Below, piece by piece: positions 11,547 through 36,797 of a stretch of 64,000 nucleotides of DNA; position 1 is the first letter of the stretch, and each line of letters opens with the position of its first letter. Below the pieces are notes generated by a model, which was not told the origin of the DNA, ran no database searches, and worked only from the letters and a program-made list of their open reading frames with translations. Made by a program: the position numbers and the translations under genes. Where the stretch lies: the NCBI GenBank assembly GCA_016712635.1, contig JADJQS010000006.1:511216-575215 (forward strand), written 5' to 3'. This DNA is from Gammaproteobacteria bacterium (GTDB taxonomy: Bacteria; Pseudomonadota; Gammaproteobacteria; SZUA-140).

Positions 11547-11641
11547 CAGGGGTGGCATTTGCTCCACCGGTCCAATACAATACCTCGCCATATTGGATTA
11601 ACTGATTGATTCTGAATTATTCTTCCCTGGATCTGGCAGGA

Positions 11642-14388: not shown

Positions 14389-14566
14389 GGCGTGAGGGGG
14401 CAGGTGTGAGGCGAAAATACTAACTATGGGAGGTCTGATTAATTCGTCATGCCCGCGCAGGCGGGCATCCAGGTCCTTGAATTACTGGTTTCCCGCTTTC
14501 GCGGGAATGACAACCAGGTAATTATTCAGGTTTCCCTAACGCCTAACACCTAACGCCTCACCAACA
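14385..14566. repeat. Composite element between manC and gmd. Heptamer-arm element (arms at 14385-14418 and 14535-14566) with a CCCGC double-hairpin element nested in its loop (14446-14511).
   Basis: agtgaggcgtgagggggcaggtgtgaggcg ... gtcatgcccgcgcaggcgggcat..ttcccgctttcgcgggaatgac ... cctaacgcctaacacctaacgcctcacc. Confidence 0.8.
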
Positions 14567-14578
14567 AAGAGGTTAGCC

Positions 14579-15664
14579 ATGTCAAAAACAGCCTTAATCA
14601 CCGGCATCACCGGCCAGGACGGGGCCTATCTGGCGGAATTTCTGCTGAAGAAGGGCTATGTCGTGCACGGGATCAAGCGGCGCACTTCGCTGTTCAACAC
14701 CGACCGCATCGACCATCTGTATCAGGATCCGCACGTCGACAACCGCCGGTTCATCCTGCACTACGGCGACATGACGGATTCGAGCAGCCTGATCCGGATC
14801 GTGCAGGAGGTGCAACCGGACGAGATCTACAACCTGGCTGCGCAAAGCCACGTCGCGGTGTCATTCGAGGAGCCGGAGTACACGGCGGATTCCGACGCCC
14901 TGGGGGCTCTGCGTCTGCTCGAGGCGATCCGGATCCTCGGCCTGGAGAAGAAGACCCGCTTCTACCAGGCCTCGACCTCCGAATTGTACGGACTGGTGCA
15001 GGAAGTGCCCCAGAGGGAGACGACGCCATTTTATCCGCGCTCGCCCTATGCCGTGGCAAAGCTCTACGCCTACTGGATCACGGTCAATTACCGCGAGGCC
15101 TATGGCATCTATGCCTGCAACGGAATCCTGTTCAATCATGAAAGCCCGATCCGGGGCGAGACCTTCGTCACGCGCAAGATCACGCGCGCGCTGGCGCGCA
15201 TCAAGCTTGGCCTGCTCGACTGCCTGTATCTCGGCAACCTGGACGCGCGCCGCGACTGGGGGCACGCACGCGATTACGTCGAGGCGCAGTGGCTGATGTT
15301 GCAACAGAAATCAGCGGAAGATTTCGTCATCGCAAGCGGAATTCAGTACAGTGTGCGCGATTTCGTCGACGCCGCCGCGAGTGAACTCGGGATGCGCATC
15401 TCATGGAAGGGACAGGGTGCCGAGGAGAAGGGCTATGATGCAGCCGGCCGCTGCATCGTGGCAGTCGATCCGCGCTATTTCCGTCCGACCGAAGTGGAAA
15501 CCCTGCTCGGTGATCCGAGCAAGGCCAGGGATAAGCTGGGCTGGACGCCGCGCACCAGCTTCAAGGAACTCGTCGCTGAAATGGTGCGCGAAGACCTCAA
15601 GGTAGCCGAACGGGATGAACTGTGCAGGAGAGAAGGGTTCAGGACGTTTGATTACCATGAATAA
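14579..15664 (+). CDS. gmd: GDP-mannose 4,6-dehydratase.
   Basis: [29 protein letters not shown]. 361 aa. Confidence 0.95.
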
Positions 15665-15667
15665 AAT

Positions 15668-15703
15668 ATGTGAAGTGTGAGGAGTGAGGTGTTAGGCGTA
15701 TGA
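15668..15703. repeat. Left arm of the heptamer element that carries the four-helix-bundle gene.
   Basis: tgtgaagtgtgaggagtgaggtgttaggcg immediately after the gmd stop. Confidence 0.7.
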
Positions 15704-15733
15704 GCTTACAGAATTTCCACGGAGGGAAATCCA

Positions 15734-16096
15734 ATGAGCAGAATACATCACGGACTCTTGGCGTGGCAGCACGCTATGAAGTTTGTAAAGGATATTTATG
15801 AGGTCACATCGGCATTCCCAAAATGTGAAATGTACGGGCTGACAAGTCAAATGAGGCGTGCCGCGGTTAGCGTGCCATCCAACATCGCGGAAGGTGCCGG
15901 AAGGGCCAGTTTCAGGGAGTTTGGGCAATTTCTCACGATAGCTCGTGGCTCTCTGTGCGAGCTCGAGACCCAGGTTGTCCTGGCTAAAGAGTTAGGCTAT
16001 ATCGCAGAGAACGATGATTTACTATCCAAAATGGAAAAACTGTTCGCTTTACTGGGTGGACTGATCAATTCTATCGGGAAACGATATCAGCAATGA
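15734..16096 (+). CDS. Four-helix-bundle protein (23S rRNA intervening-sequence protein / Avd-like family). Low-GC cargo inside the repeat element.
   Basis: 120 aa. [46 protein letters not shown] are hallmark motifs. Local GC is visibly lower (about 47%) than the neighbours. Confidence 0.8.
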
Positions 16097-17088
16097 CGCT
16101 TCACGCCTCACACCTAACACCTGACCTCTCTATCTACGTTGCCGGCCATCGCGGCCTGGTCGGTTCCGCCCTGATGCGTCGATTTCAAGCAGCAGGATAC
16201 AGCAATCTGGTTACACGGACGCATCGTGAGCTGGATCTCACCGACCAGGCGGCGGTGCGCGAATTTTTCCGGACGGAGAAACCGCGGCGGGTGCTCCTGG
16301 CCGCGGCGAAGGTCGGCGGGATACTGGCCAACGACACCTATCCGGCGGAATTCATCCGCGAGAACCTTGCCATCCAGACCAACGTAATTCACGAGGCCTG
16401 GCGCTCCGGCGTCGAGCGGCTCCTGTTTCTGGGATCTTCCTGCATCTATCCGCGCGAGTGCCCGCAGCCGATGAAGGAAGAGTATCTGCTTACCGGCCCG
16501 CTGGAGAAGACCAACCGCGCCTACGCGGTGGCGAAGATCGCCGGCATCGAGATGTGCCGCTCCTACAATCAGCAGTACGGAACCCGTTACCTTGCCGTGA
16601 TGCCGACCAACCTGTACGGTCCGGGTGACAACTTCGACCTGCAGAACTCCCATGTGCTGCCCGCACTGATACGCAAGATGCACGAGGCAAAGCTCGCCGG
16701 ATCACCCGCGGTCACGGTATGGGGAACAGGGACGCCGCGCCGGGAATTTCTGCACAGCGACGACCTCGCCGACGCCTGCCTGTTCCTGCTGAGCCTGCCG
16801 GAAGAGCAATACGCCTCACTCCTTACGCCTCACGCCTCACCGCCGTTGATCAACGTCGGATGCGGTCAGGACGTCACCATCCGCGAGCTGGCCGAGACCG
16901 CGCAGCGTGTCGTCGGATACCCGGGCCGCCTGGAGTTCGACACCAGCAAGCCTGACGGGACGCCGAGAAAGCTGCTGGACGTATCGCGCCTGAGCGCGCT
17001 TGGCTGGACGCCGCGCATCGGCCTGGCCGACGGAATCGCGCAGGTATATCGCTGGTACCTGGATCAACCCGCCTCGCAGGCGCATTGA
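16093..17088 (+). CDS. fcl: GDP-L-fucose synthase (GDP-4-keto-6-deoxymannose 3,5-epimerase/4-reductase). The true start is probably near 16129. Contains one in-frame right-arm insertion at 16813-16841.
   Basis: [14 protein letters not shown], the YPAEFI motif and the C-terminal domain. The first ~12 codons of the ORF-track model ([12 protein letters not shown]) are repeat-encoded. The internal [10 protein letters not shown] insert is absent from E. coli Fcl. Confidence 0.85.
16098..16128. repeat. Right arm (CCTCAC repeats) closing the element around the four-helix-bundle gene. Overlaps the annotated 5' end of fcl.
   Basis: cgcttcacgcctcacacctaacacctgacctc. Confidence 0.7.
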
Positions 17089-17139
17089 TCCGGAGGCTGG
17101 AATCTGTTTCAAAATTGATGATAGGCGGAAACAGCAGGC

Positions 17140-17222
17140 GTCGTCCCCGCGAAAGCGGGGATCCAGTGGCTTTAAGCCGATGAAAAGCAGAAACACTGGA
17201 TTCCCGCTTTCGCGGGAATGAC
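17140..17222. repeat. CCCGC double-hairpin inverted element, copy 2, between fcl and gmhB.
   Basis: gtcgtccccgcgaaagcggggatccag ... tggattcccgctttcgcgggaatgac. The same termini and architecture as 14446-14511. Confidence 0.75.
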
Positions 17223-17276
17223 GCATTTATCTTTCATTGCAAACATGCATTTCCAATTTTGAGATAGGTTCCAGTT

Positions 17277-17822
17277 ATGGCAGGCAGGGCGCTGATACTC
17301 GATCGGGACGGCGTGGTCAATATCGACAGGGACTATGTCCACAAGATCGAAGATTTCGAGTTCGTCGACGGCCTGTTCGAGCTGTGCCGCATGGCGGCCG
17401 GTCAGGGCTACCGCATCATCATCATCACCAACCAGTCCGGAATTGGACGCGGCTATTACACCGAGGATGATTTTCACCTCCTCACCGGCTGGATGAAGGC
17501 CAGATTCGAGGAGGAGGGTATTACGGTGGCGCAGGTCTATTACTGCCCGTATCATCCCGTGCACGGCATCGGGAAGTACAAGCAGGACTCCTACGACCGC
17601 AAACCCAACCCCGGCATGATCATCAAGGCGGCGCAGGACTTCGATTTGGACCTTTCAAACTGTATACTCGTCGGAGACCGCGAATCCGATATGAAGGCCG
17701 CACAGACCGCGGGTGTCGGCCATAAGGTCCTGTACCGTCCGGAAGGCGGCATTGATGCCCCGACGCGGGCGGACTACGTCGTCAACGAGCTGAACACCGT
17801 GCTCGAATTGGTCACGGATTGA
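17277..17822 (+). CDS. gmhB: D-glycero-beta-D-manno-heptose-1,7-bisphosphate 7-phosphatase (HAD family).
   Basis: [13 protein letters not shown] motif [23 protein letters not shown]. Confidence 0.85.
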
Positions 17823-17945
17823 GCATGCGAGGGTGCATGTTGTGCCGGGCAGACCAGGCACAACGGGCGTCATGATCCCGGGTGAGCGTTACGGCGTTCA
17901 CCACAGGCTACGGCATATTGTAGAAAGGCGTTGATTCACTGAACC

Positions 17946-18518
17946 ATGAGTGACCGTATCGTAAAAGCGCTGGAAGACCACGAGAACGTCCTTGCGGCCG
18001 TGCGGGATAACCTCGTCGCCGATATCGAGCAGGTGGCGCAATGCCTGATCGACTGCCTCGGCCGGGGCCACACCATCTTCTGGTGCGGTAACGGCGGAAG
18101 CGCGGCGGACGCACAACACATCGCCGCGGAACTTGTCGGCCGCTTCGAGCGCGAACGGAAAGCGCTCGCCTCCATCGCGCTGTCCACTGATACCTCAATC
18201 CTGACCAGCGTGGGAAACGACTATGGCTTCGACAGCATCTTCAAGCGCCAGGTCGAAGCACTGGTTCGTCGGGGTGATGTGCTCGTGGGCCTGTCCACCT
18301 CGGGCAACAGCCCGAACGTGGTGCGCGCCATCGAACAGGCGAACGGCCAGGGCGCCACCACGATCGGCGTGCTGGGCAGAGACGGCGGCCGGATAATAAA
18401 ACTTTGCCGCCTGTCGATAGTTGTGCCGGCGGAAAACACCGCGCGCATCCAGGAGATGCACGGGCTAATCGGGCACATACTGTGCGATCTGATTGAAAAG
18501 AGCAGGACTGAGGACTGA
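17946..18518 (+). CDS. gmhA: Phosphoheptose isomerase (SIS domain).
   Basis: IFWCGNGGSAADAQHIAAE, LSTSGNSPNV. The stop lies in the repeat (..RTED*). Confidence 0.85.
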   Translation: MSDRIVKALEDHENVLAAVRDNLVADIEQVAQCLIDCLGRGHTIFWCGNGGSAADAQHIAAELVGRFERERKALASIALSTDTSILTSVGNDYGFDSIFKRQVEALVRRGDVLVGLSTSGNSPNVVRAIEQANGQGATTIGVLGRDGGRIIKLCRLSIVVPAENTARIQEMHGLIGHILCDLIEKSRTED

Positions 18519-18630
18519 GTGCTCAGGACTGAGTAAAAGACAAAATCTACCCGAGCCAGATAAGCTAAGTTTAAATAGAAATAATGTTTATGGGTTTTCA
18601 CTCAGTCCTAAGACCTCAGTCCTCAATCCT
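18506..18630. repeat. Variant heptamer-arm element with ACTGAGG / CCTCAGT arms between gmhA and cysC.
   Basis: ggactgaggactgagtgctcaggactgag ... cactcagtcctaagacctcagtcctcaatcc. Confidence 0.75.
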
Positions 18631-18648
18631 ATTATTTAGGAGTTCATC

Positions 18649-19260
18649 ATGAGCGGTAATAAGAGTACCAACGTCGTCTGGCACCAGGCCACCATCGACC
18701 GTCAGAAGCGCGAAGCCATGAACGGGCACAAGAGCGCGATCCTGTGGTTCACAGGGTTGTCCGGTTCGGGAAAATCCACGCTGGCGCATGCGGTGGAAGA
18801 AAAGCTCCACGGACTGAAGTGCCGCACCTTCGTGCTCGACGGCGACAACATCCGCCACGGACTGTGCGGTGACCTTGGTTTCTCCGATGAGGACCGCGTG
18901 GAGAACATCCGCCGCATCGGCGAAGTCTCCAAGCTGTTCATAGAGGCCGGCGTGATCGCCATGACCGCGTTCATCTCGCCGTTCCGTGCCGACCGCGAGC
19001 GCGTGCGCAGCCTGGTCATGCATGGCGACTTCATCGAGATCTACTGCAAGGCCTCGCTCGAAGTGTGCGAGCAGCGTGACGTGAAGGGTCTGTACAAGAA
19101 GGCGAGGGCAGGGGAGATCAAGGCCTTTACCGGAATCTCCTCGCCGTATGAGGCGCCCGACAAGCCCGAGATCATCGTCGAGACCGGGGCCGATTCGCTG
19201 GACAAGTGCGCCGACCAGGTGCTCGCCTTCCTGCGCGAGCGCGGCATTCTGAAGGGCTGA
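18649..19260 (+). CDS. cysC: Adenylyl-sulfate (APS) kinase.
   Basis: [14 protein letters not shown]-loop, [10 protein letters not shown], 203 aa. Stand-alone; no cysN/cysD in the window. Confidence 0.9.
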
Positions 19261-19269
19261 CACAGGATT

Positions 19270-19348
19270 GGGGACAGATTTTTATCTGTCCCCCGATATC
19301 GCAATGATGCCAGTACGCCTCACACCTAACGCCTCACACCTCACGCTC
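19270..19348. repeat. GGGGACAGAT hairpin (19270-19294) followed by a right-arm-only CCTCAC repeat block (19315-19348).
   Basis: ggggacagatttttatctgtcccc ... gcctcacacctaacgcctcacacctcacgctcg. Confidence 0.75.
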
Positions 19349-19353
19349 GAGCC

Positions 19354-21120
19354 ATGAGCCTTGAAGCCTGGTTTACCGTTGCCGTCATCGGCCTCTGCCT
19401 CGGGCTGCTGATACACGGGCGCACGGCGCCGGACATCGTCATGATGGCCGGCCTGACCCTTCTGCTGGTGTCCGGCATACTGACGCCAACGGAAGCTCTT
19501 TCCGGTTTGTCGAATGAGGGCATGGTCACGGTGGGCATCATGTTCGTCATCGTGACCGGCCTGCGCGATACCGGCGCCATCGCCTGGATCGTGCAGCACC
19601 TGCTCGGTGTGCCGCGCTCGACCGCCCACGCCCAGATGCGCCTGATGACCCCGGTCGCCGCCATGAGCGCCTTCCTCAACAACACTCCGGTGGTCGCGAT
19701 GATGATCCCGGCGGTGCAGGACTGGGCGCGCCGCCACCGGATCTCCGTCTCCAAGCTGATGATCCCGCTGAGCTATGCCACCATCGCCGGCGGCACCTGT
19801 ACCCTGATCGGCACCAGCACGAATCTCGTTGTGAACGGCATGCTGATCAAGGAGACCGGCCACGGACTCAAGATGTTCGAGCTCGCCTGGGTGGGTATCC
19901 CGCTGGTGGTGGTGGTCTTCCTCGGCATCGTCCTGCTTAGCCGCTGGCTGCTGCCAGAGCGCAAGCCGGCCATCAGCCAGTTCGAGGAATCGCGCGGCTA
20001 TACCGTGGAGATGATGGTGGACTCCAGCGGGCCGCTGGTCGGCAAGACAGTGGAGCAGGCCGGCCTGCGCCACCTGCCGGGTCTGTATCTGATCGAGATC
20101 GACCGCGGCGAGCAGGTGCTGCCGGCCGTTTCGCCGCTCGAGCGGCTGCAGGCGAACGACCGGCTGATCTTCGCCGGGGCGGTGGAATCGGTCATCGACC
20201 TGCAGAAGATCCACGGCCTCTCCCCGGCCACCGACCAGATCTTCAAGCTGGGCATGCCACGGCCGGAACGCTGCCTGATCGAGGCGGTGATCTCCAACAG
20301 CGCCCCGCTGGTGGGCAAGAGCATCCGCGAGGGGCGCTTCCGCACCCTCTACAACGCGGCGGTCATCGCCGTCTCGCGCAGCGGCGAGCAGATCAAGGGC
20401 AAGATCGGCGACATCGTGCTGCGTCCGGGCGACACCCTGCTGCTGGAAGGGCACCCGTCCTTTGTTGAGCAGCAGCGCAATTCGCGTGACTTCTATCTGG
20501 TGAGCCGTCTGGCGGGCTCGACCCCGCTCAATCATGACAAGGCGCCGATCGCACTCGCGATCATGACCGCCATGGTGGCCGCCGCCGCCTTCGGCTGGCT
20601 CAGCATGCTGCAGGCGGCGCTGCTGGCCGCCGGCGCGATGTTGATTACCCGCTGTACGCGCGGCAGCAATGCGCGCGCAGCGGTGGACTGGCAGATCCTG
20701 ATCGTGATCGCCGCCTCGCTCGGCATCGGCAAGGCGCTGGAGACCACGGGTGCGGCGCAGGCAATGGCTGACGGTTTCCTGTCCTTCACCGGGGCAGGCC
20801 CGCTGATGGCGCTCTTCGTGGTCTACGTCATGACTGTGCTGTTCACCGAGATCGTGACCAACAATACCGCTGCTGCACTGATGTTTCCCATCGCGCTTGC
20901 GCTCAGCAAATCACTCGATGTGAGCTACATGCCCTTCATCATCACCATCACGGTGGCGGCTTCGATGAGCTTCGCCACTCCGATCGGGTACCAGACCAAC
21001 CTGATGGTGCTGGGTCCGGGCGGTTATCGCTTCACCGACTACATGAAACTTGGTATCCCGCTGACCGTCATGGTCGGGATACTGATTATGCTGATTGTCC
21101 CGCGGGTGTGGGCGTTCTGA
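19354..21120 (+). CDS. SLC13/DASS-family anion permease with two central TrkA-C (RCK_C) domains. Candidate sulfate or dicarboxylate transporter.
   Basis: 588 aa. N- and C-terminal multi-TM halves around two repeated roughly 70-aa TrkA-C-like segments (GKTVEQAGLRHLPGLYLIEIDRGEQ.. and GKSIREGRFRTLYNAAVIAVSRSGEQ..). Confidence 0.7.
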   Translation: MSLEAWFTVAVIGLCLGLLIHGRTAPDIVMMAGLTLLLVSGILTPTEALSGLSNEGMVTVGIMFVIVTGLRDTGAIAWIVQHLLGVPRSTAHAQMRLMTPVAAMSAFLNNTPVVAMMIPAVQDWARRHRISVSKLMIPLSYATIAGGTCTLIGTSTNLVVNGMLIKETGHGLKMFELAWVGIPLVVVVFLGIVLLSRWLLPERKPAISQFEESRGYTVEMMVDSSGPLVGKTVEQAGLRHLPGLYLIEIDRGEQVLPAVSPLERLQANDRLIFAGAVESVIDLQKIHGLSPATDQIFKLGMPRPERCLIEAVISNSAPLVGKSIREGRFRTLYNAAVIAVSRSGEQIKGKIGDIVLRPGDTLLLEGHPSFVEQQRNSRDFYLVSRLAGSTPLNHDKAPIALAIMTAMVAAAAFGWLSMLQAALLAAGAMLITRCTRGSNARAAVDWQILIVIAASLGIGKALETTGAAQAMADGFLSFTGAGPLMALFVVYVMTVLFTEIVTNNTAAALMFPIALALSKSLDVSYMPFIITITVAASMSFATPIGYQTNLMVLGPGGYRFTDYMKLGIPLTVMVGILIMLIVPRVWAF

Positions 21121-21149
21121 GCGCTGGGTAGTAAGTATTGAGGCAGTGT

Positions 21150-21967
21150 ATGAAACTGAGCGCCATATTATTCAGGCGACAGAAAACAGATCTTTATGAG
21201 TGGCGGCGCATAAAAGCAGGTAGCCGAAATTTTATATAGCGTTTCTGCTATGGCTGATATCGTTGAGAAAATGCTCACACAAGTGCTGCATGGACTATCT
21301 GGTCTTCTGGAGAGTCAATTAATAAAGGTATTCACATGTTGATAGGTGGCCGTTCTGAGACCTTATTTCTGGTCTGCCTGAAGAAACTGCTCTGTGACTC
21401 AAAGAATATACTGGATATTGGAACGCCAGAAAGATTTGCCAAGGAATTACGGCGTTACGAGAGCTTGTTTCTGGAAAGAACTATCTCGCAGCAGGATTTA
21501 ATCCAGAAATGAACAAGGGTCAGTACAATTGCGACTTACATCAAGATATAGAAATGATGACATTTGATGATTCATCATTTGATGCGGTCATTTGCCTAGA
21601 GGTACTCGAGCATGTCGCAAATCCATTCCAAGCCGTCCATGAAATAAAGCGCGTGTTGATAAACGGCGGAAAACTTCTGCTAACGGTTCCATTTCTCAGC
21701 CAGTATCATGGAAAAAGCGCTTTATCGCATGATCATTTAAATTATCCCGATTATTGGCGTTTTACGCATGAGGGTTTACATAAGCTGTTTCATGATTTCA
21801 CGAATCTTGAAGTGTTACCCCTGGATGGACCGATCGAATTCAGACTAAAGCAATTTTATCTCACTCGCTGGATAAATTACCCTGCTATTCGGAGAATCAT
21901 AGATCTAATAGACAAACCGGAGCGCGGCAAGGCCACAACGAGACATCTTGTTTACGGCATCAAATAA
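21150..21967 (+). pseudogene. Class I SAM-dependent methyltransferase broken into several short frames. Only the C-terminal 152-aa ORF (21509-21967) is intact.
   Basis: The C-terminal ORF has the post-motif-I region (FDAVICLEVLEHVANP..GGKLLLTVP). The N-terminal ILDIGT-containing piece is in another frame and ends in a stop at about 21507. Confidence 0.45.
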
Positions 21968-21972
21968 ACAAG

Positions 21973-23098
21973 ATGAAGATTCTAGTAGTGACGGGAATAT
22001 TCCCTCCGGATCATGGTGGTCCGGCGAGCTATGTGCCGGAGATTGCACAGGCGTTGTCTGTGAAACATACAATAGTGTCAGTAATAACCTTGAGTGACTT
22101 GTTGAACCACAGCGATGAAAACTATACGTTTCCGATCTTGAGAATTTTACGGAAAGCTAACAAGATTTCTCACATTTAGAATAGTTAATACCATAAGAAA
22201 ATATTCCAAAGAGGCAGATGTCATATTCGTCAATGGACTGATCTTCGAAAGCATCGTTGCATGCAAATTATTCTCAAGGAAACCGTTAGCCATAAAAATC
22301 GTTGGTGACCTGATTTGGGAAAAGGCGAAACTATCATCACCTGACACGGTATCCATCGATGAATTCCAGAGAAATGTGGCGGGTATAAAGTGGAAAATTT
22401 TGAAATGGATCTACAATAAGCTGATCAATCAGTGCGATGCCATTATCGTACCAAGCCTATATCTATGCAGGATTGTTAAAGGTTGGGGAATCGATACTGC
22501 AAAAATTAACGTCGTATACAACTCCGTGAAACCACAGTCTCTTCCATATGCTAATTATGGAGAAGGCGGCAATGTCGATTGCGTTACAGTGGCGAGATTG
22601 GTGCCTTGGAAGGGAATTAGTGAGCTTATAGATGTCGTTTGTGAAAACAAGTGGACTTTAAATGTTATCGGTGACGGCCCCCTAAAGGAGGATCTTGTAT
22701 GCAGAGCGCTCAAGCACAGTAATAATTCTGTACAATTTCTTGGTTATGTACCTCGTGATCAGGTGCATTCTGAAATTTCCAAAGCCAAGATATTCATCCT
22801 TAACTCGACATATGAGGGATTGCCACACATTGTTCTCGAGGCGAAACAAGCCGGAGTAGCCGTTATTGCAACCGCTGTTGGTGGAACACCTGAGACAATA
22901 ACAGATGGCGTAGATGGATATCTTATTCCCCCGGGGGACAATGCCATGCTAAGAGAGAAAATCGGATATTTGCTATCCAACAATGATAAGCGCACTCAGG
23001 TAGCATCGAAAGGTAGAGAACAGGTTTTGCATAACTTTTCATTTGAAACCATGGCTACCAAAACTGAGAAAATCCTTGAAAATACCCTGAATAGGTAA
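21973..23098 (+). pseudogene. GT4-family glycosyltransferase interrupted by a single frameshift near 22140-22180 (ORFs 21973-22179 and 22376-23098 plus an unlisted bridging segment).
   Basis: The N-terminal piece is KILVVTGIFPPDHGGPASYV. The C-terminal piece has EGLPHIVLEAKQAGVAVIATAVGGTPE. The bridging segment IVNTIRKYSKEADVIFVNG.. reads in the frame of the second ORF. Confidence 0.55.
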
Positions 23099-23106
23099 AC
23101 CGGCTG

Positions 23107-24306
23107 GTGCATATCATGGGTCATCCGATAAATATCCTCCTTCTCAGCAAAGATCCCACCTTATTCGAGCAAAATGATGCTGTCATCGGTGACACAAGAA
23201 AGCGACACATCGCCTACTCGAATATACTGCAATCAAGGTACCCCGGAAGCCAAATAAAAGTCATAACCTACACAAAGAGAACTTCGCTACTTCAGCATGA
23301 GAAAATCAATCAATCTCTCTCGATTTTCGGGACCGCCTCTGCTCACCGCATCACCTATTTGGCCGGTGTGATAAGAATGCTGCCTAAAACGCTGGAGGAT
23401 GGATGGCGGCCAGATATCGTCACTGCTCAGACCCCATGGGAAGAAGGCATCGTCGGATACGTGATATCAAGAATATTCAATGCTAAGTTCATACTGCAAA
23501 TCCATTTCGATTTGTTTTCTGAGCACTGGCGAAAAGAAAACAGATTTAACCTGTGGCGTAACTTGATTGCGCGCGCATTGATCAAACGATCTGATGCTGT
23601 TCGAGTAGTTTCAGAATTCCAAAAACACCAACTGGTGGATTGCCTCGGAAAACCATCCGGCACGATCCGGGTTATACCTGTAGGGGTGAATTTTCAGCCA
23701 TTAGATGGTGAAAAGTCTGCATTCAAACGAAAGATAGCTATTTCATTGGAGGCTAAAAAAGTTGTCTTGTTTGTTGGTAAATTTTATGCACCAAAAAATC
23801 TCCAACTATGGATTGATGTTGCGCAGCTTATTAGCCGTGATAACCCAGACGTAATGTTTGTCATGGCAGGCAACGGGCCCATGTTTGGTGAGATAAGGGA
23901 GGCGGTCATCAACCGTGGACTATCAGATAGATTTATTTTCTTGGGTTATGTCAAGCATGAGGAATTGCCCGGAATATATGCGGCCGCCGATGTCTTTCTA
24001 CTTACCTCATATTATGAGGGATTTGGCAGAGTCGTCCTTGAGGCCTATCTAGCCAAAATCCCTGTTGTGAGTACCAAATGCGCCGGAACACTCGACCTCA
24101 TCGAATCAGGTGTCACTGGAATATTAGCTCCTGTTGGTGATGCACAAACGTTAGCAGATGGTGTGATAAACCTGCTCTCCGCTGATGAACTGAGGATGTC
24201 TTATGGGACTAAGGGACATGCGAGAGTGAATGTGAAATATGGTTTTGCTAACTTATCAAATAAGTTAGTCGACTTCTGGGGAAGTGTTTGCGATGAGTCA
24301 ACCTGA
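23107..24306 (+). CDS. GT4-family glycosyltransferase.
   Basis: 399 aa. EGFGRVVLEAYLAKIPVVSTKCAGTLDLIESGVTG motif. Confidence 0.8.
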   Translation: MHIMGHPINILLLSKDPTLFEQNDAVIGDTRKRHIAYSNILQSRYPGSQIKVITYTKRTSLLQHEKINQSLSIFGTASAHRITYLAGVIRMLPKTLEDGWRPDIVTAQTPWEEGIVGYVISRIFNAKFILQIHFDLFSEHWRKENRFNLWRNLIARALIKRSDAVRVVSEFQKHQLVDCLGKPSGTIRVIPVGVNFQPLDGEKSAFKRKIAISLEAKKVVLFVGKFYAPKNLQLWIDVAQLISRDNPDVMFVMAGNGPMFGEIREAVINRGLSDRFIFLGYVKHEELPGIYAAADVFLLTSYYEGFGRVVLEAYLAKIPVVSTKCAGTLDLIESGVTGILAPVGDAQTLADGVINLLSADELRMSYGTKGHARVNVKYGFANLSNKLVDFWGSVCDEST

Positions 24307-25150
24307 TTTTATCGGTATAGGAGCGCAAAAATCAGGTACTTCATGGATTTATGCGTGCCTACATGTACATCCTCAGGTTTGTATACCGCGTAAGGAAATA
24401 CATTTTTTCAGCAGAGAGCGAAACTGGTCTAAAGGATATGATTGGTATGCAGGAAACTTTGACGGCTGTCATGCGGGGCAGGTAATCGGTGAATTCTCAA
24501 CTTCATACTTGGCGGATGAGTACACGCCTGCGAGGATCCATAATAAATTTCCTGATGTGAAACTGGTCGTGTCTCTACGCAATCCAATTGACAGAGCCTA
24601 TTCCAATTATATTAACGATATCAAAACAGGTATTGTGTCCAGTTCTACGGACTTTCTGGATGCGTTGGATAGCCATCCTGAATACATGAACCAAGGTCAG
24701 TACGCGCGCCAAGTAAATCGTTACCTAGATTATTTTAAGCCAGCTCAATTGCTGATATTAATCTACGAGGATAGTTTGATCGATCCCGGGGACTATATAA
24801 AAAAAATATACAGATTTCTCAATATTGACCATGAATTTATACCTGAATTTATTCGTACAAAGATAAATCCTGCCAGGATTCCACGTCATGTCTGGATTGA
24901 TTCCGGGATAAGGGCTGTCTCCAGTTACCTGAGATCAAACGGGTTTCGTACTCTATTCTGGCAAATAAAAAAATCAGGCCTCGCGGAAAGAATTCGGACA
25001 CTGAATACAAGAATGGATATCAGACGCGCTGATGTGATAGACACTCAAACTAGACATTATTTGTATGAGAAATATGATATCCAGTCAGAAATTTCTGCTA
25101 TTTCAAAAATAATTGGAAGAGATCTTATCGAGTGGCGCATTCAAACATAA
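24293..25150 (+). CDS. Carbohydrate sulfotransferase (PAPS-dependent sulfotransferase domain).
   Basis: 5'-PSB motif IGIGAQKSGTSW and 3'-PB motif VVSLRNPIDRAYSNY. The start is probably the second ATG (MSQPDF) overlapping the upstream GT stop. Confidence 0.8.
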   Translation: MSQPDFIGIGAQKSGTSWIYACLHVHPQVCIPRKEIHFFSRERNWSKGYDWYAGNFDGCHAGQVIGEFSTSYLADEYTPARIHNKFPDVKLVVSLRNPIDRAYSNYINDIKTGIVSSSTDFLDALDSHPEYMNQGQYARQVNRYLDYFKPAQLLILIYEDSLIDPGDYIKKIYRFLNIDHEFIPEFIRTKINPARIPRHVWIDSGIRAVSSYLRSNGFRTLFWQIKKSGLAERIRTLNTRMDIRRADVIDTQTRHYLYEKYDIQSEISAISKIIGRDLIEWRIQT

Positions 25151-26204
25151 CAGTGATTTGCCAGGTTGTTGACGAGCATGATCCTATTAATGCAACAGCT
25201 GTCAGATGGATTCGTGTTCTGTCACAAAAGAATCAGGTAGGGAAAGTAACTGTCCTGGCATTAAAAGTCGGTGAATATAACTTGCCTGATAATACGAGAG
25301 TGTTCTCGTTTAGAGGAAGAAATCGCATTTCTACTTTGATTAAGTTCTATTCCCTGATAATAAAAGGAGTGATGGTAAATAAAACGGATTATTATTTTAT
25401 CTATCAGGGTGGCCCATATCCGTTGCTACTTTTACCATTTAAGCTTTTGGTGGTAAAAACGTATACCATTGGAAAGCACATCCACATATTACCTTTATGA
25501 TGAAATTATACGCGCGTTACTGCGACACCGTTGTATTTACTTCAACAACCAATGCATTTCCCATGCAATTACCCAATCTCAGAGTTATTGGGCAGGGCGT
25601 TGATACAGAAAAATTTCGGGTGTTGGGAAAGGAAAGAAATAAAGATCTTGTCATTGTTGGCAGGATTGCCCCGGTCAAGCGCTTGGAAAGCATAATTTTC
25701 ATATTGACGCATTTGAATCTCAAGTACGGAATAGCTCCGAAAGTAGATTTATATGGTCCGATATCAGGACAGGATAAGAAATATAAGGAGCACATAGACC
25801 ATCTAATCTGTGAGCAGAAATTGAATGATCAGATTATTTTTCATGGGCCAGTTAGGCAGGATGCCCTCCCGGAGATATTTAATACCCACAAGCTCCTTGT
25901 CAACTTTTCTGATACTGCATTGGATAGAGTTGTCGTCGAAGCTATGGCCTGTGGATTGCCAGTGTTCTCGACGAATAACTGCGTTAGAGAGATCATCCCC
26001 GACGCTTATCATGATATTCTGACTTGTGTTGACCAACACGAAAACCATGCGCTGCTTGCTGAATTGATCTACTCACTGCTTTTGCTGCCTGATGCCATCA
26101 GAACCCATATCGGCAGGGACCTAAGAGAAATTATATTACATCATCATAGTGATATAACCCTGTTCGACAGAATGTTAGCCGAAATCGGAAACTATGAAAA
26201 ATAA
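25132..26204 (+). pseudogene. GT4-family glycosyltransferase split over two frames (25132-25500 and 25497-26204).
   Basis: The N-domain piece ends ..GKHIHILPL*. The C-domain piece (VVEAMACGLPVFSTNN) starts in a different frame. Together about 357 aa, the size of a whole GT4. Confidence 0.5.
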
Positions 26205-26994
26205 ATTCTCGATAAAAATTGGCGTCAGAAACTCATTCATCATTGCCAATGGAATGTATAAAAACATCAGAAACTCACTGCCTGATAAGCGGATTGTCGC
26301 AATTCACGATATCAATGACTCGATCAGATTCCGAGATAAAATGCATTGGCTGCGCGAAACATATGACATTCTTAGTTTGGGCGATTTGCTCGAAACTAGC
26401 ATAGGCAACAAAACACAGATCGCCATAACATTTGATGACGGCTATCTGTCATGGCGTGATAATGTTATTCCGGTGCTGGTGGATCTCAATATTCCTGCCA
26501 CTTTTTTTATTTGCTCTGGTTTTGTTGGTCTTGATGAAATTGATGCAAGAAAGTTTGCTGTTAATTGCTTCAGGAGAAAACAGAAGCTGCTTCCACTTCA
26601 AGCAGAGCACATCAGATCGATATCTGATCATAAATTGTTCGAGATAGGTGGACACACGGCGCATCACCTGGATCTCGGAAAAGAGTATCCCACAGAAATT
26701 CTGATAGATGAAATTATAAGAGACCGTGAACTATTAGAGGATTGGACAGGCGATGATGTACGATGGTTCGCATATCCATTTGGAGGAAGAATTAATGTCT
26801 GTAATCAGACAAAAGAATTTGTCAGAAATACTGGTTATAGCGCTGCGTTTACTATCATTCCTAGATCAGCGAACGAGATCGAGGATTTCTATGAAATAGG
26901 GAGGGATAGCCTGGACATCTATGCATCAGATCTTTTATGGAGAAACTGGCTTAACGGCGGTTACGACATGATTAAGAAAACAAGGATTTCGTAA
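26194..26994 (+). CDS. Polysaccharide deacetylase (NodB homology, CE4 family).
   Basis: ITFDDGY, FFICSGFVG, GGHTAHH motifs. Confidence 0.8.
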   Translation: MKNKFSIKIGVRNSFIIANGMYKNIRNSLPDKRIVAIHDINDSIRFRDKMHWLRETYDILSLGDLLETSIGNKTQIAITFDDGYLSWRDNVIPVLVDLNIPATFFICSGFVGLDEIDARKFAVNCFRRKQKLLPLQAEHIRSISDHKLFEIGGHTAHHLDLGKEYPTEILIDEIIRDRELLEDWTGDDVRWFAYPFGGRINVCNQTKEFVRNTGYSAAFTIIPRSANEIEDFYEIGRDSLDIYASDLLWRNWLNGGYDMIKKTRIS

Positions 26995-27602
26995 TGAACA
27001 AGTTTGAATATGTGAGGAATATTATCCTTTCTGAACCAGTGAATAACAAAAGTCTGCTCGATGTCGGATGCAGAGGATGTGAATTAAAGTCTTATGTCGG
27101 AGATGTGGTTGCATACAAAGGTGTGGACCTATTCCAAAATCCATCGAATAGCGTTGACTACGTGTTGGATGTAGAAAATGGACTTCCCATGGAAAATAGT
27201 TCAAGTGACTATGTCGTAGCCTTGGATTTGGTTGAACATCTTAATGATTTTCAAGGCGGCTTAGAAGAATTACTGAGGGTGGCGCGAGAGAAACTCATCG
27301 TAATGCTTCCAAATATGGCTCACTGGGTTTTCAGGAAGGAATTCCTTTTTCATGGAAGGATCGGTGCAAAATATGATCTTTCATATGGAATGGGAAAAGA
27401 CCGACATCGCTGGTTCACTGTGTTGCCACAGACGGATGAATATATAAAAAGGTTTTGTGACGAAAATAATCTCGAGTTACAGGTCATCTGGTTTAATGGA
27501 GGAAGAAAGAAAGAACTATTCTATCGAGTAACGAAATTCCTGGGTTTTCCGCCATCAATAGGCGTGTGGGCATCACTTTATATAATGAAAAAAATGTCAT
27601 AA
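26994..27602 (+). CDS. Class I SAM-dependent methyltransferase.
   Basis: LLDVGCRGCE motif I, VVALDLVEHL. 202 aa. Confidence 0.7.
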   Translation: MNKFEYVRNIILSEPVNNKSLLDVGCRGCELKSYVGDVVAYKGVDLFQNPSNSVDYVLDVENGLPMENSSSDYVVALDLVEHLNDFQGGLEELLRVAREKLIVMLPNMAHWVFRKEFLFHGRIGAKYDLSYGMGKDRHRWFTVLPQTDEYIKRFCDENNLELQVIWFNGGRKKELFYRVTKFLGFPPSIGVWASLYIMKKMS

Positions 27603-27796: not shown

Positions 27797-29059
27797 ATGC
27801 GTAAGATAGTATCAGATGTTGGGTACATGGGGTTCTCACAACTCCTTGTCGCACTGTCGCAGATAGCGCTCCAAGTCTATGTGGTCAGGACCACGACAGT
27901 TTATGAATATGGTGAGTACATAGGCAGTCTAGTCATAGTGACGTTAGTTGAAGCAATTTTTGTCGCAAGAGGCGGTGAACTGGCTTTGCGATATGTCGGC
28001 ACGCACTGGAATAAGAGTGATTTCATCACTGCTCGGCAATACGCAACAGCGATAATACGCATCGATAAATATGTAAACTGGTTACTTTATATCTTGCTCG
28101 TTACTTTGGCATTTGCGACCTATGAGGTGCTGAATTTAAATCTATATTACGTGATATTTCTTTCGCTTGTTATTCCAGCTCAGGTAGGTTACGGAGTGTA
28201 TAAAAGTCTATTCATAATTTCATCTAGACTCAGGGGGCAATCTGTATTTGAAATAATCTTCGCCGTCGTGCAGATATCTACAGGAGCCATTGGCGTTTAT
28301 TTATTCAGCATCCCTGGTTTGATTGCATCAGTTATTGGAACAGCTATGGTGAAGACTGTTTTAGCTAGGGTTATGACGGAAAGTTGGTGGCCTGATAACG
28401 TCAAAGGTCTGGATTCCCTTTCCACAAATAATAATATCAATATAACAACCTGGTGGAGCGACAGTATACATTCTATTATGCGAAATTCATTTTTCTCTGG
28501 GTCTAATCAAATAGACATAATCTTGCTCAATATATTCAGAGGTGCAGAAACAGTAGCTTTGTATAAAGTCGCAAAATCGTTATCTGCAATTCCTATAAAA
28601 ATTGCCGCCCCTGTCTGGGCGGCCTTACGTCCTCGAATCATGAAATCATGGAACAACGGCGACAGGGCGAGATTAGTCAAGATAATATTGACACCTTCAT
28701 TATCCATGCTGGCAGTTCTTCCCGTTATGCTGCTGCCTGCTTCGCTGTATGGTGATAAGTTTATTGCCATTATATACGGGCCTGACTATGCGTCCGCGAT
28801 AGACTCTATTCTTGTATTGCTCGTCGGTGTATGGATCTTTAATGTGACTACAGGTTGGTTCAGGTTCTGGATATTAATAATTAAGGATAGATTAGCAAGT
28901 ACAAATATATCGGCAATCCAGTTTTTTATGCTGCTAGTTCTAGGTCTGCTGTACGGAAAGGAAACAATTGTTTCAATGTCCGAGGTTGTGAGCGTAACCA
29001 TGATTGTCGTCAGCGTGATGTGCTGGTTTGAATTATTCAGAAAACTAAAAACGCTGTGA
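27797..29059 (+). CDS. wzx: Wzx-type O-unit flippase (MOP / polysaccharide biosynthesis protein family).
   Basis: 420 aa, about 12 predicted TM segments, hydrophobic throughout. Position within a GT cluster. Confidence 0.65.
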   Translation: MRKIVSDVGYMGFSQLLVALSQIALQVYVVRTTTVYEYGEYIGSLVIVTLVEAIFVARGGELALRYVGTHWNKSDFITARQYATAIIRIDKYVNWLLYILLVTLAFATYEVLNLNLYYVIFLSLVIPAQVGYGVYKSLFIISSRLRGQSVFEIIFAVVQISTGAIGVYLFSIPGLIASVIGTAMVKTVLARVMTESWWPDNVKGLDSLSTNNNINITTWWSDSIHSIMRNSFFSGSNQIDIILLNIFRGAETVALYKVAKSLSAIPIKIAAPVWAALRPRIMKSWNNGDRARLVKIILTPSLSMLAVLPVMLLPASLYGDKFIAIIYGPDYASAIDSILVLLVGVWIFNVTTGWFRFWILIIKDRLASTNISAIQFFMLLVLGLLYGKETIVSMSEVVSVTMIVVSVMCWFELFRKLKTL

Positions 29060-29184
29060 ACTCTCGTATTCAATGGCGAGAGAAGCTGCTATCGGCCATT
29101 GTTGGGTATCTAGAGGTCAATCAATCATGAGAAATCTGGCCATTAGTAACCCATTGTTTGTCTCATTAGTTCTCCCTCGTAGTA

Positions 29185-31303: not shown

Positions 31304-31467
31304 AATGTTTCCTGTTAATAGTTTATGGTTTTTCTCTTAACTCCAGTATGTACTTGTAGACTTTCATTGTCTCGGTGTACATCTTTTCGCGCTGAATTTT
31401 CCCGTCACAAGCTCTTTTCCCTTGCTACCGTATCCGAAGCGGATCGCCTGGCTTCCCGCCAGAATAC

Positions 31468-32457: not shown

Positions 32458-32551
32458 GATAAATAGCCTTATCTCCTGTTTCTATATTAGTATAAATCAT
32501 AAGACGATGTCATTGTGCTGATCAAGATTTGCACGGCAACGAGATAAGAAC

Positions 32552-36744: not shown

Positions 36745-36797
36745 AGCTTCAATAATAAAAAAACCCAAACCAAATCAGTCAGTACGGTTGGGATTAT

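What the first reader, a model, noticed from the sequence alone, without database searches (positions are those of the whole stretch)
18649..25150. Prediction of a sulfated glycan: cysC plus an SLC13 anion permease directly upstream of an island encoding a PAPS-type carbohydrate sulfotransferase
- ORF 24293-25150 has both PAPS-binding signatures of sulfotransferases (GAQKSGTSW 5'-PSB and RNPIDRAYSNY 3'-PB).
- It lies among glycosyltransferases and a wzx/wzy pair.
- Immediately upstream of the island are a stand-alone APS kinase (cysC, which makes PAPS) and an SLC13/DASS permease with tandem TrkA-C domains. The SLC13 family includes Na+/sulfate symporters.
- Sulfated O-antigens or EPS are uncommon in bacteria (rhizobial Nod factors, LPS or K-antigen, some marine bacteria). 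Together with the methyltransferases and deacetylase, this predicts a heavily decorated, partly anionic polymer.
Basis: partly seen in the sequence, partly recalled or inferred. Interest (0 to 1): 0.7.

Follow-up and report, generated by a model that had tools for sequence, protein, structure and literature searches.

The report
Sulfotransferase cassette in O-antigen island
A foreign, low-GC O-antigen gene island in an uncultured gammaproteobacterium carries a heparan-sulfate-type sugar sulfotransferase locked in a widespread three-gene cassette, so a sulfated surface sugar polymer is a sound prediction, but the neighbouring PAPS-kinase/sulfate-permease pair is an ordinary conserved core module and not part of the island.

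Summary
18649-19260 is an APS kinase, 19354-21120 is an SLC13-type permease with two TrkA-C domains, and 24293-25150 is a PAPS-type sulfotransferase (ST). The ST has intact 5'-PSB and 3'-PB motifs and a catalytic Glu. Its predicted fold is closest to heparan-sulfate 3-O- and N-sulfotransferases. It sits in a 41% GC Wzx/Wzy O-antigen island at the ihfB...wbpM hot spot of a 63% GC genome.

The ST belongs to a very large uncharacterised family that almost always lies next to a GT4 glycosyltransferase and a CE4 deacetylase, and is sometimes fused to GT4s or a flippase. A glycan acceptor is therefore well supported.

The cysC-permease pair is conserved core DNA. It is present in every close relative examined. 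Homology between strains stops exactly at the permease stop codon, and four other island types follow it with no ST in their visible parts. ST-family loci elsewhere rarely carry cysC. One more distant relative does have cysC-permease followed by an unrelated ST in a glycan island.

Sulfated capsule clusters with PAPS genes are already published (Vibrio, Cobetia), so this is a new member of a known kind. The window copy also has frame-breaking indels in neighbouring genes.

The parts
11606..12706 (+). wzz-like chain-length determinant. Marks the start of the O-antigen region, downstream of rpsA-ihfB-lapB-pyrF.
   Evidence: Pfam Wzz 2.8e-9, 37.6 bits against a cutoff of 25.5. ihfB lies at about 8534-8872. 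rpsA, lapB and pyrF were identified.
12859..18518 (+). Conserved core sugar-nucleotide genes: manC, gmd, a four-helix-bundle (23S rRNA IVP-type) gene, fcl, gmhB and gmhA.
   Evidence: NCBIfam equivalogs. The same order is found in L003, L153 and L154.
18649..19260 (+). cysC, a stand-alone APS kinase that makes PAPS from APS. Core gene.
   Evidence: APS_kinase 2.1e-67. NF003013 scores 317 bits against a cutoff of 163. The protein is 100% identical in L001 despite 3 nucleotide substitutions.
19354..21120 (+). SLC13/IT-superfamily permease with two central TrkA-C domains, a probable sulfate importer. Core gene. Its stop codon is the left junction of the variable island.
   Evidence: Pfam hits. 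PS01271-like motif. There are 24 substitutions against L001 and the protein is 100% identical, so all are synonymous. Homologs lie next to cysC in 19 of 70 loci and next to cysD in 10 of 70 loci. Homology with L153, L154, L007 and L003 ends at 21120.
21336..21967 (+). SAM methyltransferase. In the window it is broken by a 1-nt deletion at 21472.
   Evidence: The intact 210-aa gene is on L001. The indel is listed.
21973..23098 (+). GT4 glycosyltransferase (GT_a). In the window it is broken by a 2-nt deletion at 22170.
23107..24306 (+). GT4 glycosyltransferase (GT_b). It overlaps the start of the ST gene by 14 nt.
   Evidence: Glycos_transf_1 3.4e-38. Overlap shown.
24293..25150 (+). PAPS-dependent carbohydrate sulfotransferase of the heparan-sulfate 3-OST/NST-like clade. 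Intact.
   Evidence: Pfam. PDB sequence hits: 3rnl 1e-24, the 3-OSTs 1e-17, NDST 4e-11. Invariant E35, R96, P98, R101 and S104. AF2 pLDDT 90.8 and Foldseek hits. The same protein is encoded on L001.
25132..26204 (+). GT4 glycosyltransferase (GT_c), the cassette partner of the ST. In the window it is split by a 1-nt deletion at 25444.
   Evidence: The intact 357-aa gene is on L001. Homologs lie within 3.5 kb of the ST in 20 of 21 well-flanked loci.
26194..26994 (+). CE4 polysaccharide deacetylase and cassette partner of the ST. It has no signal peptide and carries TFDDG and HTAHH motifs.
   Evidence: Polysacc_deac_1 3.9e-20. Its nearest characterised relatives are PgaB, IcaB and HfsH. Homologs lie within 3.5 kb of the ST in 18 of 21 loci.
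26994..27602 (+). SAM methyltransferase (MetW-like).
27797..29059 (+). Wzx-like flippase candidate.
   Evidence: No Pfam hit. About 10 hydrophobic segments. The assignment rests on position and topology and is an inference.
29073..30315 (+). wzy O-antigen polymerase. In the window it is disrupted by a 1-nt insertion at 29174 and the net loss of 233 nt at 30214.
   Evidence: The intact 480-aa copy on L001 hits O_anti_polymerase (Pfam O_anti_polymase) at 1.1e-6, 28.6 bits against a cutoff of 24.2.
30350..35505 (.). Rest of the island: an SDR epimerase/dehydratase (-), a GT4 (-, with indels at 31386 and 31472), a methyltransferase, a split GT4 (33354-33782 / 33779-34543) and an SDR epimerase.
35560..38681 (+). 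WbpL/WecA-family initiating transferase and a WbpM-type UDP-HexNAc 4,6-dehydratase. Together they form the right end of the O-antigen locus.
   Evidence: Glycos_transf_4 1e-36 and Polysacc_synt_2 2.8e-118. WecA-family model 6e-28.

Best explanation
The locus is the O-antigen (Wzx/Wzy-dependent) hot spot of an uncultured gammaproteobacterium related to Steroidobacteraceae. Its order is rpsA-ihfB-lapB-pyrF-wzz-manC-gmd-fcl-gmhB-gmhA-cysC-SLC13-[variable island]-wbpL-wbpM-galU.

The island in this strain was acquired horizontally. It contains a conserved cassette of GT4, sulfotransferase, GT4 and CE4 deacetylase, followed by a methyltransferase.

Inferred mechanism:
- The repeat unit is built on undecaprenyl-PP at the cytoplasmic face, starting with WbpL.
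- A cassette GT4 adds a HexNAc-type sugar.
- The cytoplasmic CE4 and the cytoplasmic PAPS-dependent sulfotransferase modify the sugar.
- Wzx then flips the sulfated, partly methylated unit and Wzy polymerises it.

PAPS must come from an APS kinase. The adjacent cysC is the candidate, fed by sulfate taken up through the SAC1/SLT-like SLC13 permease and by an ATP sulfurylase encoded elsewhere.

What is shown: gene identities, motif and fold conservation, cassette conservation, fusions, and the core versus island status of the genes.

What is inferred: the acceptor, the order of the steps, and the use of this cysC and permease by the island. The cysC-permease pair is a housekeeping or core module that the island exploits. 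It is not a dedicated part of the island.
For: Identity and integrity of the ST.

Glycan context:
- GTs, CE4, MTs, wzy, wzz, wbpL and wbpM are present.
- The genes GT_b/ST/GT_c/CE4/MT overlap one another.

Cassette conservation:
- 53 of 78 ST loci have a GT_c homolog and 38 of 78 have a CE4 homolog.
- Among the 21 loci with at least 2.5 kb on both sides, the figures are 20 and 18, all on the same strand.

Fusions:
- ST-GT4 (P0134).
- GT4-ST (P0136, P0150).
- DUF2334-MT-GT4-ST (P0137).
- Wzx-ST (P0266).

Family size: 7,718 representatives at E<=1e-30.

Island is foreign and recently shared:
- GC 41% against 63%.
- 0.15% divergence from L001 in the island against 1.2% in the adjacent core.

cysC and the permease are functional. 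Twenty-seven substitutions against L001 leave both proteins 100% identical.

The permease family is linked to sulfate activation across phyla. It has the SAC1/SLT architecture (PMC8780407).

Independent parallel: in L009, cysC-SLC13 is followed by a wzx, a different Sulfotransfer_1 (2e-42), MTs and a GT.

Published precedent: the sulfated CPS clusters of Vibrio KMM 8419 and Cobetia marina contain cysDNC (plus cysQ and a sulfate permease in Cobetia) together with STs (PMC11641403; PMC11766843).
Against: - No chemistry exists for this organism.
- The pair cysC-SLC13 is conserved whatever the island content. In L005, L004 and L006 it lies in a context that is not an O-antigen island.
- ST-family loci elsewhere almost never carry cysC (2 of 78).
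- No cysDN/sat, cysQ or cysH is in the window, so the PAPS route and the role of cysC in assimilation are unknown.
- In the window itself a methyltransferase, at least three GT4 genes and wzy carry frame-breaking indels, and wzy has a 233-nt net deletion, relative to L001. If these are real, this strain makes no polymer.
- The wzx assignment has no family support.
Confidence: 0.65

Rival explanations
1. The adjacency is coincidental. cysC and the SLC13 permease are an assimilatory sulfate-uptake and activation module of the core genome. They happen to form the fixed left border of the O-antigen recombination hot spot, and the ST simply draws on the general PAPS pool.
For: - The pair has core GC.
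- It is conserved in all close and mid-distance relatives.
- Homology ends exactly at the permease stop.
- The four other island types seen show no ST in their visible parts.
- In Planctomycetota, Saccharospirillaceae and Balneolales the permease homolog sits with cysD/cysN(C)/cysC.
- The pair occurs outside any glycan context in L006.
Against: - This reading does not conflict with PAPS supply to the ST. It only denies dedication.
- In this clade the pair is embedded among LPS sugar genes, not among cys genes.
- L009 repeats the arrangement cysC-SLC13-glycan island with an unrelated ST.
- Whether assimilation in this lineage needs PAPS at all is unknown.
Confidence: 0.55
2. The island is a decaying pseudogene cluster in this strain and no sulfated polymer is made.
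For: Relative to L001 (99.4% identical), the window has six small frame-breaking indel events in the island and a net 233-nt loss in wzy. A further GT4 is split at 33779. No indel falls in any coding sequence of the core flank.
Against: - Four of the six small indels are homopolymer-length changes.
- The indel-to-substitution ratio in the island (about 7 to 16) is far above what evolution normally gives.
- The source contig is 584 kb long, from a MAG. This suggests a long-read assembly in which a strain-variable, low-coverage island is polished poorly.
- The ST, CE4 and MT2 genes are intact.
Confidence: 0.3
3. The sulfotransferase acts on something other than the polymer's repeat unit, such as lipid A or core, a protein, or a small molecule.
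For: No acceptor has been tested. The ST has no NCBIfam assignment. Sulfotransferase folds are promiscuous across acceptor classes (one search lists TPSTs and cytosolic SULTs at 1e-5).
Against: - The cassette with a GT4 and a CE4 is conserved in 18-20 of 21 loci.
- Covalent fusions exist to complete GT4s and to a Wzx-type flippase.
- The closest solved relatives with known function are all glycan sulfotransferases.
Confidence: 0.1

Closest known systems
Sulfated capsular polysaccharide gene clusters of Vibrio sp. KMM 8419 and Cobetia marina KMM 1449 (PMC11641403, PMC11766843)
   Same: Sulfotransferase genes lie inside a gammaproteobacterial surface-polysaccharide locus, with PAPS-synthesis genes close by and, in Cobetia, a sulfate permease. 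Those authors call this combination a hallmark of sulfated polysaccharide synthesis.
   Different: - Those clusters are ABC-transporter (Kps) capsule loci with extra copies of cysD/cysN/cysC (plus cysQ), and the polymer structure is proven by NMR.
- Here the pathway is Wzx/Wzy.
- Only cysC is nearby. It is a single core gene outside the island.
- No chemistry exists.
Heparan sulfate 3-O-sulfotransferases and the NST domain of NDST1
   Same: They share the fold, the 5'-PSB and 3'-PB motifs, and the E-x-H-F-F catalytic-base motif. The role of Glu as base is taken from PMC11625862.
   Different: - Identity is only 20-30%.
- The Asp of the 3-OST E-x-H-x-x-D motif is Ser here. The residue numbering is from memory.
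- The PSB Lys is often Arg within the family.
- The C-terminal roughly 100 residues are family-specific.
- The protein is a soluble bacterial enzyme, not a Golgi type II membrane protein.
Chlamydomonas SAC1/SLT Na+/sulfate transporters (SLC13 with TrkA-C domains)
   Same: The architecture is the same: two transporter halves separated by TrkA-C domains, with the Na:sulfate symporter signature. Bacterial SAC1 homologs are known (PMC8780407).
   Different: No transport data exist for the bacterial proteins. The NCBIfam DASS model scores below its cutoff (103.7 against 198.6). The substrate is inferred from gene neighbourhood only.
Pseudomonas aeruginosa O-specific antigen locus (ihfB ... wzz ... 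wbpL, wbpM)
   Same: The chromosomal hot spot is the same, the locus ends with WbpL and WbpM homologs, and a low-GC variable block carries wzx, wzy and GTs. The P. aeruginosa layout is recalled from memory.
   Different: Extra core genes (manC-gmd-fcl-gmhB-gmhA-cysC-SLC13) lie between wzz and the variable block. To my knowledge no P. aeruginosa serotype locus carries a sulfotransferase.
Caulobacter HfsH and the PgaB/IcaB CE4 de-N-acetylases
   Same: The cassette's CE4 is most similar to these HexNAc de-N-acetylases. HfsH is likewise a cytoplasmic CE4 in a Wzx/Wzy pathway (from memory).
   Different: The matches are weak (E 1e-13 to 1e-6, far below the equivalog cutoffs). None of these enzymes is coupled to a sulfotransferase.

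Membership tests
PAPS-dependent sulfotransferase (Pfam Sulfotransfer_1, HS 3-OST/NST-like clade) | Profile match above the curated threshold | tested here: met
   PF00685 scores 75.5 bits against a cutoff of 22. PF13469 scores 62.8 bits.
PAPS-dependent sulfotransferase (Pfam Sulfotransfer_1, HS 3-OST/NST-like clade) | 5'-PSB loop (basic residue plus G-T/S-S/T) and 3'-PB (Arg ... Ser) | tested here: met
   GAQKSGTSW is present. R96, P98, R101 and S104 are invariant in 31 homologs. K13 alternates with R within the family.
PAPS-dependent sulfotransferase (Pfam Sulfotransfer_1, HS 3-OST/NST-like clade) | Catalytic base (Glu in 3-OST/NST) | tested here: met
   E35 in KEIHFF is invariant and aligns with the EIHFF motif of 3-OST-5. 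The role of Glu is from PMC11625862.
PAPS-dependent sulfotransferase (Pfam Sulfotransfer_1, HS 3-OST/NST-like clade) | Sulfotransferase fold | tested here: met
   AF2 pLDDT 90.8. Foldseek: 3rnl 6e-16 (TM 0.71-0.82), the 3-OSTs about 1e-11, NDST1 2e-10.
PAPS-dependent sulfotransferase (Pfam Sulfotransfer_1, HS 3-OST/NST-like clade) | Sulfuryl transfer from PAPS to a sugar acceptor | not testable with these tools
   An enzyme assay is needed.
APS kinase (CysC) | Family profile above cutoff and an intact P-loop | tested here: met
   NF003013 scores 317 bits against 163 and TIGR00455 scores 277 against 138.7. GLSGSGKST is present in the translation.
SLC13/DASS sulfate symporter (SAC1/SLT type) | DASS-family transporter profile | tested here: inconclusive
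   Pfam CitMHS 2.7e-78 and Na_sulph_symp 5e-10 are both above their cutoffs. NCBIfam TIGR00785 scores 103.7, below its cutoff of 198.6.
SLC13/DASS sulfate symporter (SAC1/SLT type) | Two central TrkA-C domains and the Na:sulfate symporter signature | tested here: met
   Two TrkA_C stretches. ASMSFATPIGYQTNLMV matches the PS01271 pattern as I recall it.
SLC13/DASS sulfate symporter (SAC1/SLT type) | Sulfate as the transported substrate | not testable with these tools
   The only evidence is indirect: cysC within the flank in 19 of 70 homolog loci and cysD in 10 of 70.
Wzx/Wzy-dependent O-antigen locus | Wzz, Wzy, an initiating PNPT (WecA/WbpL family) and GTs at the ihfB-wbpM hot spot | tested here: met
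   Wzz and Wzy (the latter on L001). WbpL and WbpM. ihfB. In the window copy wzy is disrupted.
Wzx/Wzy-dependent O-antigen locus | Wzx flippase | tested here: inconclusive
   27797-29059 has about 10 hydrophobic segments but no family hit even at E<=1.
Sulfated-polysaccharide gene cluster carrying its own PAPS genes (Vibrio/Cobetia type) | cysD/cysN (or sat) plus cysC inside the cluster as dedicated copies | tested here: not met
   Only cysC is present. There is no cysD hit in the window. cysC is core DNA and is conserved irrespective of the island.
NDST-like N-deacetylase/N-sulfotransferase | An NST-type sulfotransferase functionally coupled to a HexNAc de-N-acetylase | tested here: inconclusive
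   The ST is related to NST and is genetically coupled to a CE4 in 18 of 21 loci. The CE4 is not homologous to the NDST deacetylase domain, the two are separate proteins, and N-sulfation is untested.

The most novel reading that the evidence does not exclude
The conserved ST-GT4-CE4 cassette could be a bacterial, split functional analogue of animal NDST. The GT4 would add a HexNAc, the cytoplasmic CE4 would remove the N-acetyl group, and the NST/3-OST-like sulfotransferase would N-sulfate the free amine. The product would be an N-sulfo-hexosamine in a bacterial O-antigen or EPS. To my knowledge this modification has not been demonstrated for bacterial polysaccharides. The ST family is widespread in metagenomes, with thousands of members.
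Probability: 0.17. Interest if true: 0.75.

Novelty: new member of a known kind. Interest (0 to 1): 0.42.

Why it matters
Sulfated surface polysaccharides are still regarded as rare in bacteria outside cyanobacteria and a few marine genera.

This locus adds an uncultured Steroidobacteraceae-like lineage to that list. It also exposes a very large, uncharacterised family of heparan-sulfate-like sulfotransferases, with 7,718 representatives at E<=1e-30. Members of this family travel with a GT4 and a CE4 deacetylase. That suggests glycan sulfation in environmental bacteria is much commoner than the literature implies.

The cassette is a compact, soluble, bacterial source of carbohydrate sulfotransferases. 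These may have value for making sulfated or N-sulfated glycans.

For the specific claim, the lesson is methodological. Adjacency to an O-antigen hot spot is weak evidence of functional linkage.

Tried and rejected
- Promoter and terminator scan of 17800-22500. Counts were at or below the shuffle expectation and there was no terminator between the permease and the island. This is uninformative about co-transcription.
- Exact-sequence look-ups to recover the MAG's own contig returned only two Logan contigs, L001 and L002. The rest of the genome (cysDN/sat, cysH type, cysQ) could therefore not be inspected.
- tblastn with an E. coli CysD sequence written from memory found cysD in ten loci but none in the window.
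- The ST has no NCBIfam model. The wzx candidate has no Pfam hit even at E<=1.
- P0113 first looked like a GT-ST fusion. It holds only the C-terminal half of a GT on a 3-kb contig and may be a truncated gene call. It was replaced as evidence by the full-length fusions P0134, P0136, P0137 and P0266.
- Inverted-repeat search at the island's left junction and at the wzy deletion found no mobile-element ends. No direct repeats flank the 233-nt deletion.
- I considered and rejected the idea that cysC-SLC13 was co-transferred with the island. The GC content, the all-synonymous divergence and the conservation across strains all contradict it.

Full report
**1. What is in the window**

The window has about 62-65% GC, except for a block from about 21.1 to 36 kb that falls to 40-50%.

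Profile searches give the following gene order: serA-pheA-aroF-tyrA-aroA-cmk-rpsA-ihfB-lapB-pyrF, then wzz (11606-12706), manC, gmd, a small four-helix-bundle gene, fcl, gmhB, gmhA, cysC (18649-19260) and an SLC13-type permease (19354-21120). The low-GC block follows. After it come a WbpL/WecA-family initiating transferase (35560-36744), a WbpM-type dehydratase (36798-38681) and galU.

This is the classical gammaproteobacterial O-antigen hot spot between ihfB and wbpM. The comparison with Pseudomonas aeruginosa is from memory.

**2. Check of the observation**

- cysC scores APS_kinase 2.1e-67 and 317 bits on the NCBIfam adenylyl-sulfate kinase model, against a cutoff of 163.
- The permease has CitMHS and Na_sulph_symp transporter halves and two TrkA-C domains. 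It carries ASMSFATPIGYQTNLMV, which fits the PROSITE Na:sulfate symporter pattern as I recall it.
- ORF 24293-25150 scores Sulfotransfer_1 5.6e-21 and contains GAQKSGTSW and RNPIDRAYSNY.
- Around it lie several GT4 genes, a CE4 deacetylase, three methyltransferases, a wzx-like membrane protein and wzy. The wzx candidate has no family hit.

**3. The sulfotransferase**

Its best PDB sequence matches are an uncharacterised bacterial sulfotransferase (3rnl, 1e-24), heparan-sulfate 3-O-sulfotransferases 5, 3A and 1 (about 1e-17), and the N-sulfotransferase domain of NDST1 (4e-11).

In an alignment with 30 homologs, E35 of KEIHFF is invariant. This is the position of the catalytic Glu of 3-OST/NST (PMC11625862). 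R96, P98, R101 and S104 of the 3'-PB are also invariant. The PSB Lys is Lys or Arg.

An AlphaFold model has pLDDT 90.8. Foldseek returns 3rnl, the 3-OSTs and NDST1 ahead of tyrosylprotein and cytosolic sulfotransferases. The enzyme has no signal peptide or TM segment, as expected for a user of cytoplasmic PAPS.

The family is very large. A profile search finds 7,718 cluster representatives at E<=1e-30 and 35,224 at E<=1e-10. Almost all are unnamed, and there is no NCBIfam model.

**4. A conserved cassette**

I fetched 80 metagenomic loci with family members and compared them with the island's proteins. Of the 78 loci that contain an ST hit:
- 53 contain a homolog of the GT4 that follows the ST in the window (GT_c);
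- 38 contain a homolog of the CE4 deacetylase.

Many of these loci are short. Among the 21 loci with at least 2.5 kb on each side of the ST, 20 have the GT4 and 18 have the CE4 within 3.5 kb. All are on the same strand, in the order ST-GT-CE4 or GT-ST-CE4.

In the window the genes GT_b/ST/GT_c/CE4/MT overlap each other by 1-19 nt.

Full-length fusion proteins exist:
- ST-GT4 (P0134);
- GT4-ST (P0136, P0150);
- DUF2334-methyltransferase-GT4-ST (P0137);
- Wzx-type flippase-ST (P0266).

The CE4 has TFDDG and HTAHH motifs. Its nearest characterised relatives are the PNAG de-N-acetylases PgaB and IcaB and the holdfast deacetylase HfsH.

Together these results make a glycan repeat unit by far the likeliest acceptor. 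They also raise the possibility that de-N-acetylation and sulfation are coupled.

**5. The cysC-permease pair is core, not island**

A scan of species-representative genomes with the permease gave 70 loci. The nearest is 96% identical and comes from a Steroidobacteraceae MAG.

In all seven gammaproteobacterial relatives of this clade recovered by the scan (67-96% identical), cysC lies immediately upstream of the permease, usually preceded by manC-gmd-fcl. L008 (64%) showed no cysC, but its contig leaves only 287 nt upstream of the permease. Two further strains from the 90% cluster of the permease (L153 and L154) have the same core order from lapB to the permease.

Nucleotide homology of L153, L154, L007 and L003 with the window ends exactly at the permease stop codon. 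What follows differs each time:
- L007: wzx, an APH-like kinase, two MTs, DUF2334, a GT4 and Wzy_C.
- L153: a MarR-like gene, a Big_5 protein, an AsnB-like gene, an MT and a carbamoyltransferase.
- L154 and L003: a NusG-like and a MarR-like gene, unknown genes and a GT11.

None shows a sulfotransferase in the 2-10 kb that is visible. In L004 and L005 a TPR/SEC-C protein follows. In L006 the pair sits near glnD and map.

Conversely, only 2 of 78 ST-family loci have cysC within 10 kb, and none has cysD or the permease.

Between the window and L001, the 27 substitutions in cysC and the permease leave both proteins 100% identical, so both genes are under strong purifying selection. The island is eight times less diverged than this core (0.15% against 1.2%). 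That pattern indicates recent sharing of the island between strains.

**6. What still links the pair to sulfation**

APS kinase is the only route to PAPS, so an active ST needs it.

The permease family is associated with sulfate activation genes across phyla. cysC lies within the fetched flank in 19 of 70 loci and cysD in 10 of 70, for example in Planctomycetota, Saccharospirillaceae and Balneolales. Its architecture is that of the Chlamydomonas SAC1/SLT Na+/sulfate transporters (PMC8780407).

One more distant relative repeats the arrangement independently. L009, whose permease is 67% identical, has manC-gmd-fcl-cysC-SLC13 followed by AsnB, wzx, a non-homologous Sulfotransfer_1 (2e-42, with cytosolic-SULT-like motifs), two MTs and a GT.

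Whether cysC also serves assimilation cannot be decided.

**7. Integrity of the window copy**

L001 is a 14.7-kb contig from an independent run. It is 99.4% identical to the window and has intact genes throughout.

Relative to it the window has indels at 21472 (MT), 22170 (GT_a, 2 nt), 25444 (GT_c), 29174 (wzy), and 31386 and 31472 (a GT4 on the minus strand). At 30214 it has 1 nt in place of 234 nt of wzy. A further GT4 is split at 33779.

Four of the six small indels are homopolymer-length changes. None falls in a core coding sequence. The source contig is 584 kb long and comes from a MAG. I therefore favour consensus errors in a strain-variable region of a long-read assembly, but real pseudogenisation is not excluded. 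The ST, the CE4 and MT2 are intact in both copies.

**8. Comparison with the known and verdict**

Surface-polysaccharide clusters that combine sulfotransferases with PAPS-synthesis genes, and in Cobetia a sulfate permease, have been described with NMR-proven sulfated capsules. The examples are Vibrio sp. KMM 8419 and Cobetia marina KMM 1449 (PMC11641403, PMC11766843). An HS-type ST in a Wzx/Wzy EPS cluster has been noted in Actinoplanes (PMC13390465).

The prediction of a sulfated glycan here is therefore reasonable. It is a new member of a known kind.

They are a conserved core module bordering a recombination hot spot.

The more interesting and untested aspect is the widespread ST-GT4-CE4 cassette, which could be a split analogue of animal NDST that produces N-sulfated hexosamine.

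Noticed in passing
window 21472, 22170, 25444, 29174, 30214, 31386, 31472; split GT4 at 33779: The island genes carry frame-breaking indels and a net 233-nt loss in wzy relative to the 99.4% identical contig L001, where all genes are intact. The adjacent core coding sequences have none. The cause is probably long-read consensus errors in a strain-variable region, though real decay is possible.
   Followed up: partly
window 17144-21120 versus 21121-31635 (compared with L001): The core flank differs from L001 at 48 sites (1.2%). Of these, the 27 in cysC and the permease leave both proteins 100% identical. The low-GC island differs at only 16 sites (0.15%). The island seems to have been shared between strains much more recently than the flanks diverged.
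   Followed up: partly
L009:10659-11462 (Gammaproteobacteria MAG SZUA-140): An unrelated, cytosolic-SULT-like Sulfotransfer_1 (2e-42; motifs YPKSGNTW and RDPRDVAVS) sits in a different glycan island directly downstream of the same cysC-SLC13 pair.
   Followed up: partly
P0137 (1150 aa), P0134, P0136, P0266: Multi-domain proteins fuse this ST family to complete GT4s, to a methyltransferase plus a DUF2334 deacetylase-like domain, or to a Wzx-type flippase. P0137 combines four of the island's activities in one chain.
   Followed up: partly
window 18616-19263 (-): A 215-aa antisense ORF fully overlaps cysC. On L001 the public gene call chose this antisense ORF instead of cysC, which is a gene-calling artefact in GC-rich DNA.
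   Followed up: yes
window 17138-17224: A REP-like element lies between fcl and gmhB. It has two 31-nt arms, 90% complementary (…CCCCGCGAAAGCGGGGATCCAGTG / CACTGGATTCCCGCTTTCGCGGGAATGACGC). It gives rise to spurious ORFs with 'RESGNP…RFRGDD' and 'IPAKAGIQ' translations.
   Followed up: no
window 15734-16096: A four-helix-bundle gene (TIGR02436, 23S rRNA intervening-sequence protein family) is inserted between gmd and fcl. It is also present in L154 but absent from L153.
   Followed up: no
window 19332-19338: There is a 7-nt insertion (relative to L001 and L002) in the cysC-permease intergenic spacer.
   Followed up: no
L003:11858-12882; L154:5592-6555: In two related strains the variable island begins with a NusG-family paralog (RfaH/LoaP-like) and a MarR-like regulator. 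This suggests dedicated antitermination control of the O-antigen operon in those strains. The window has no counterpart.
   Followed up: no
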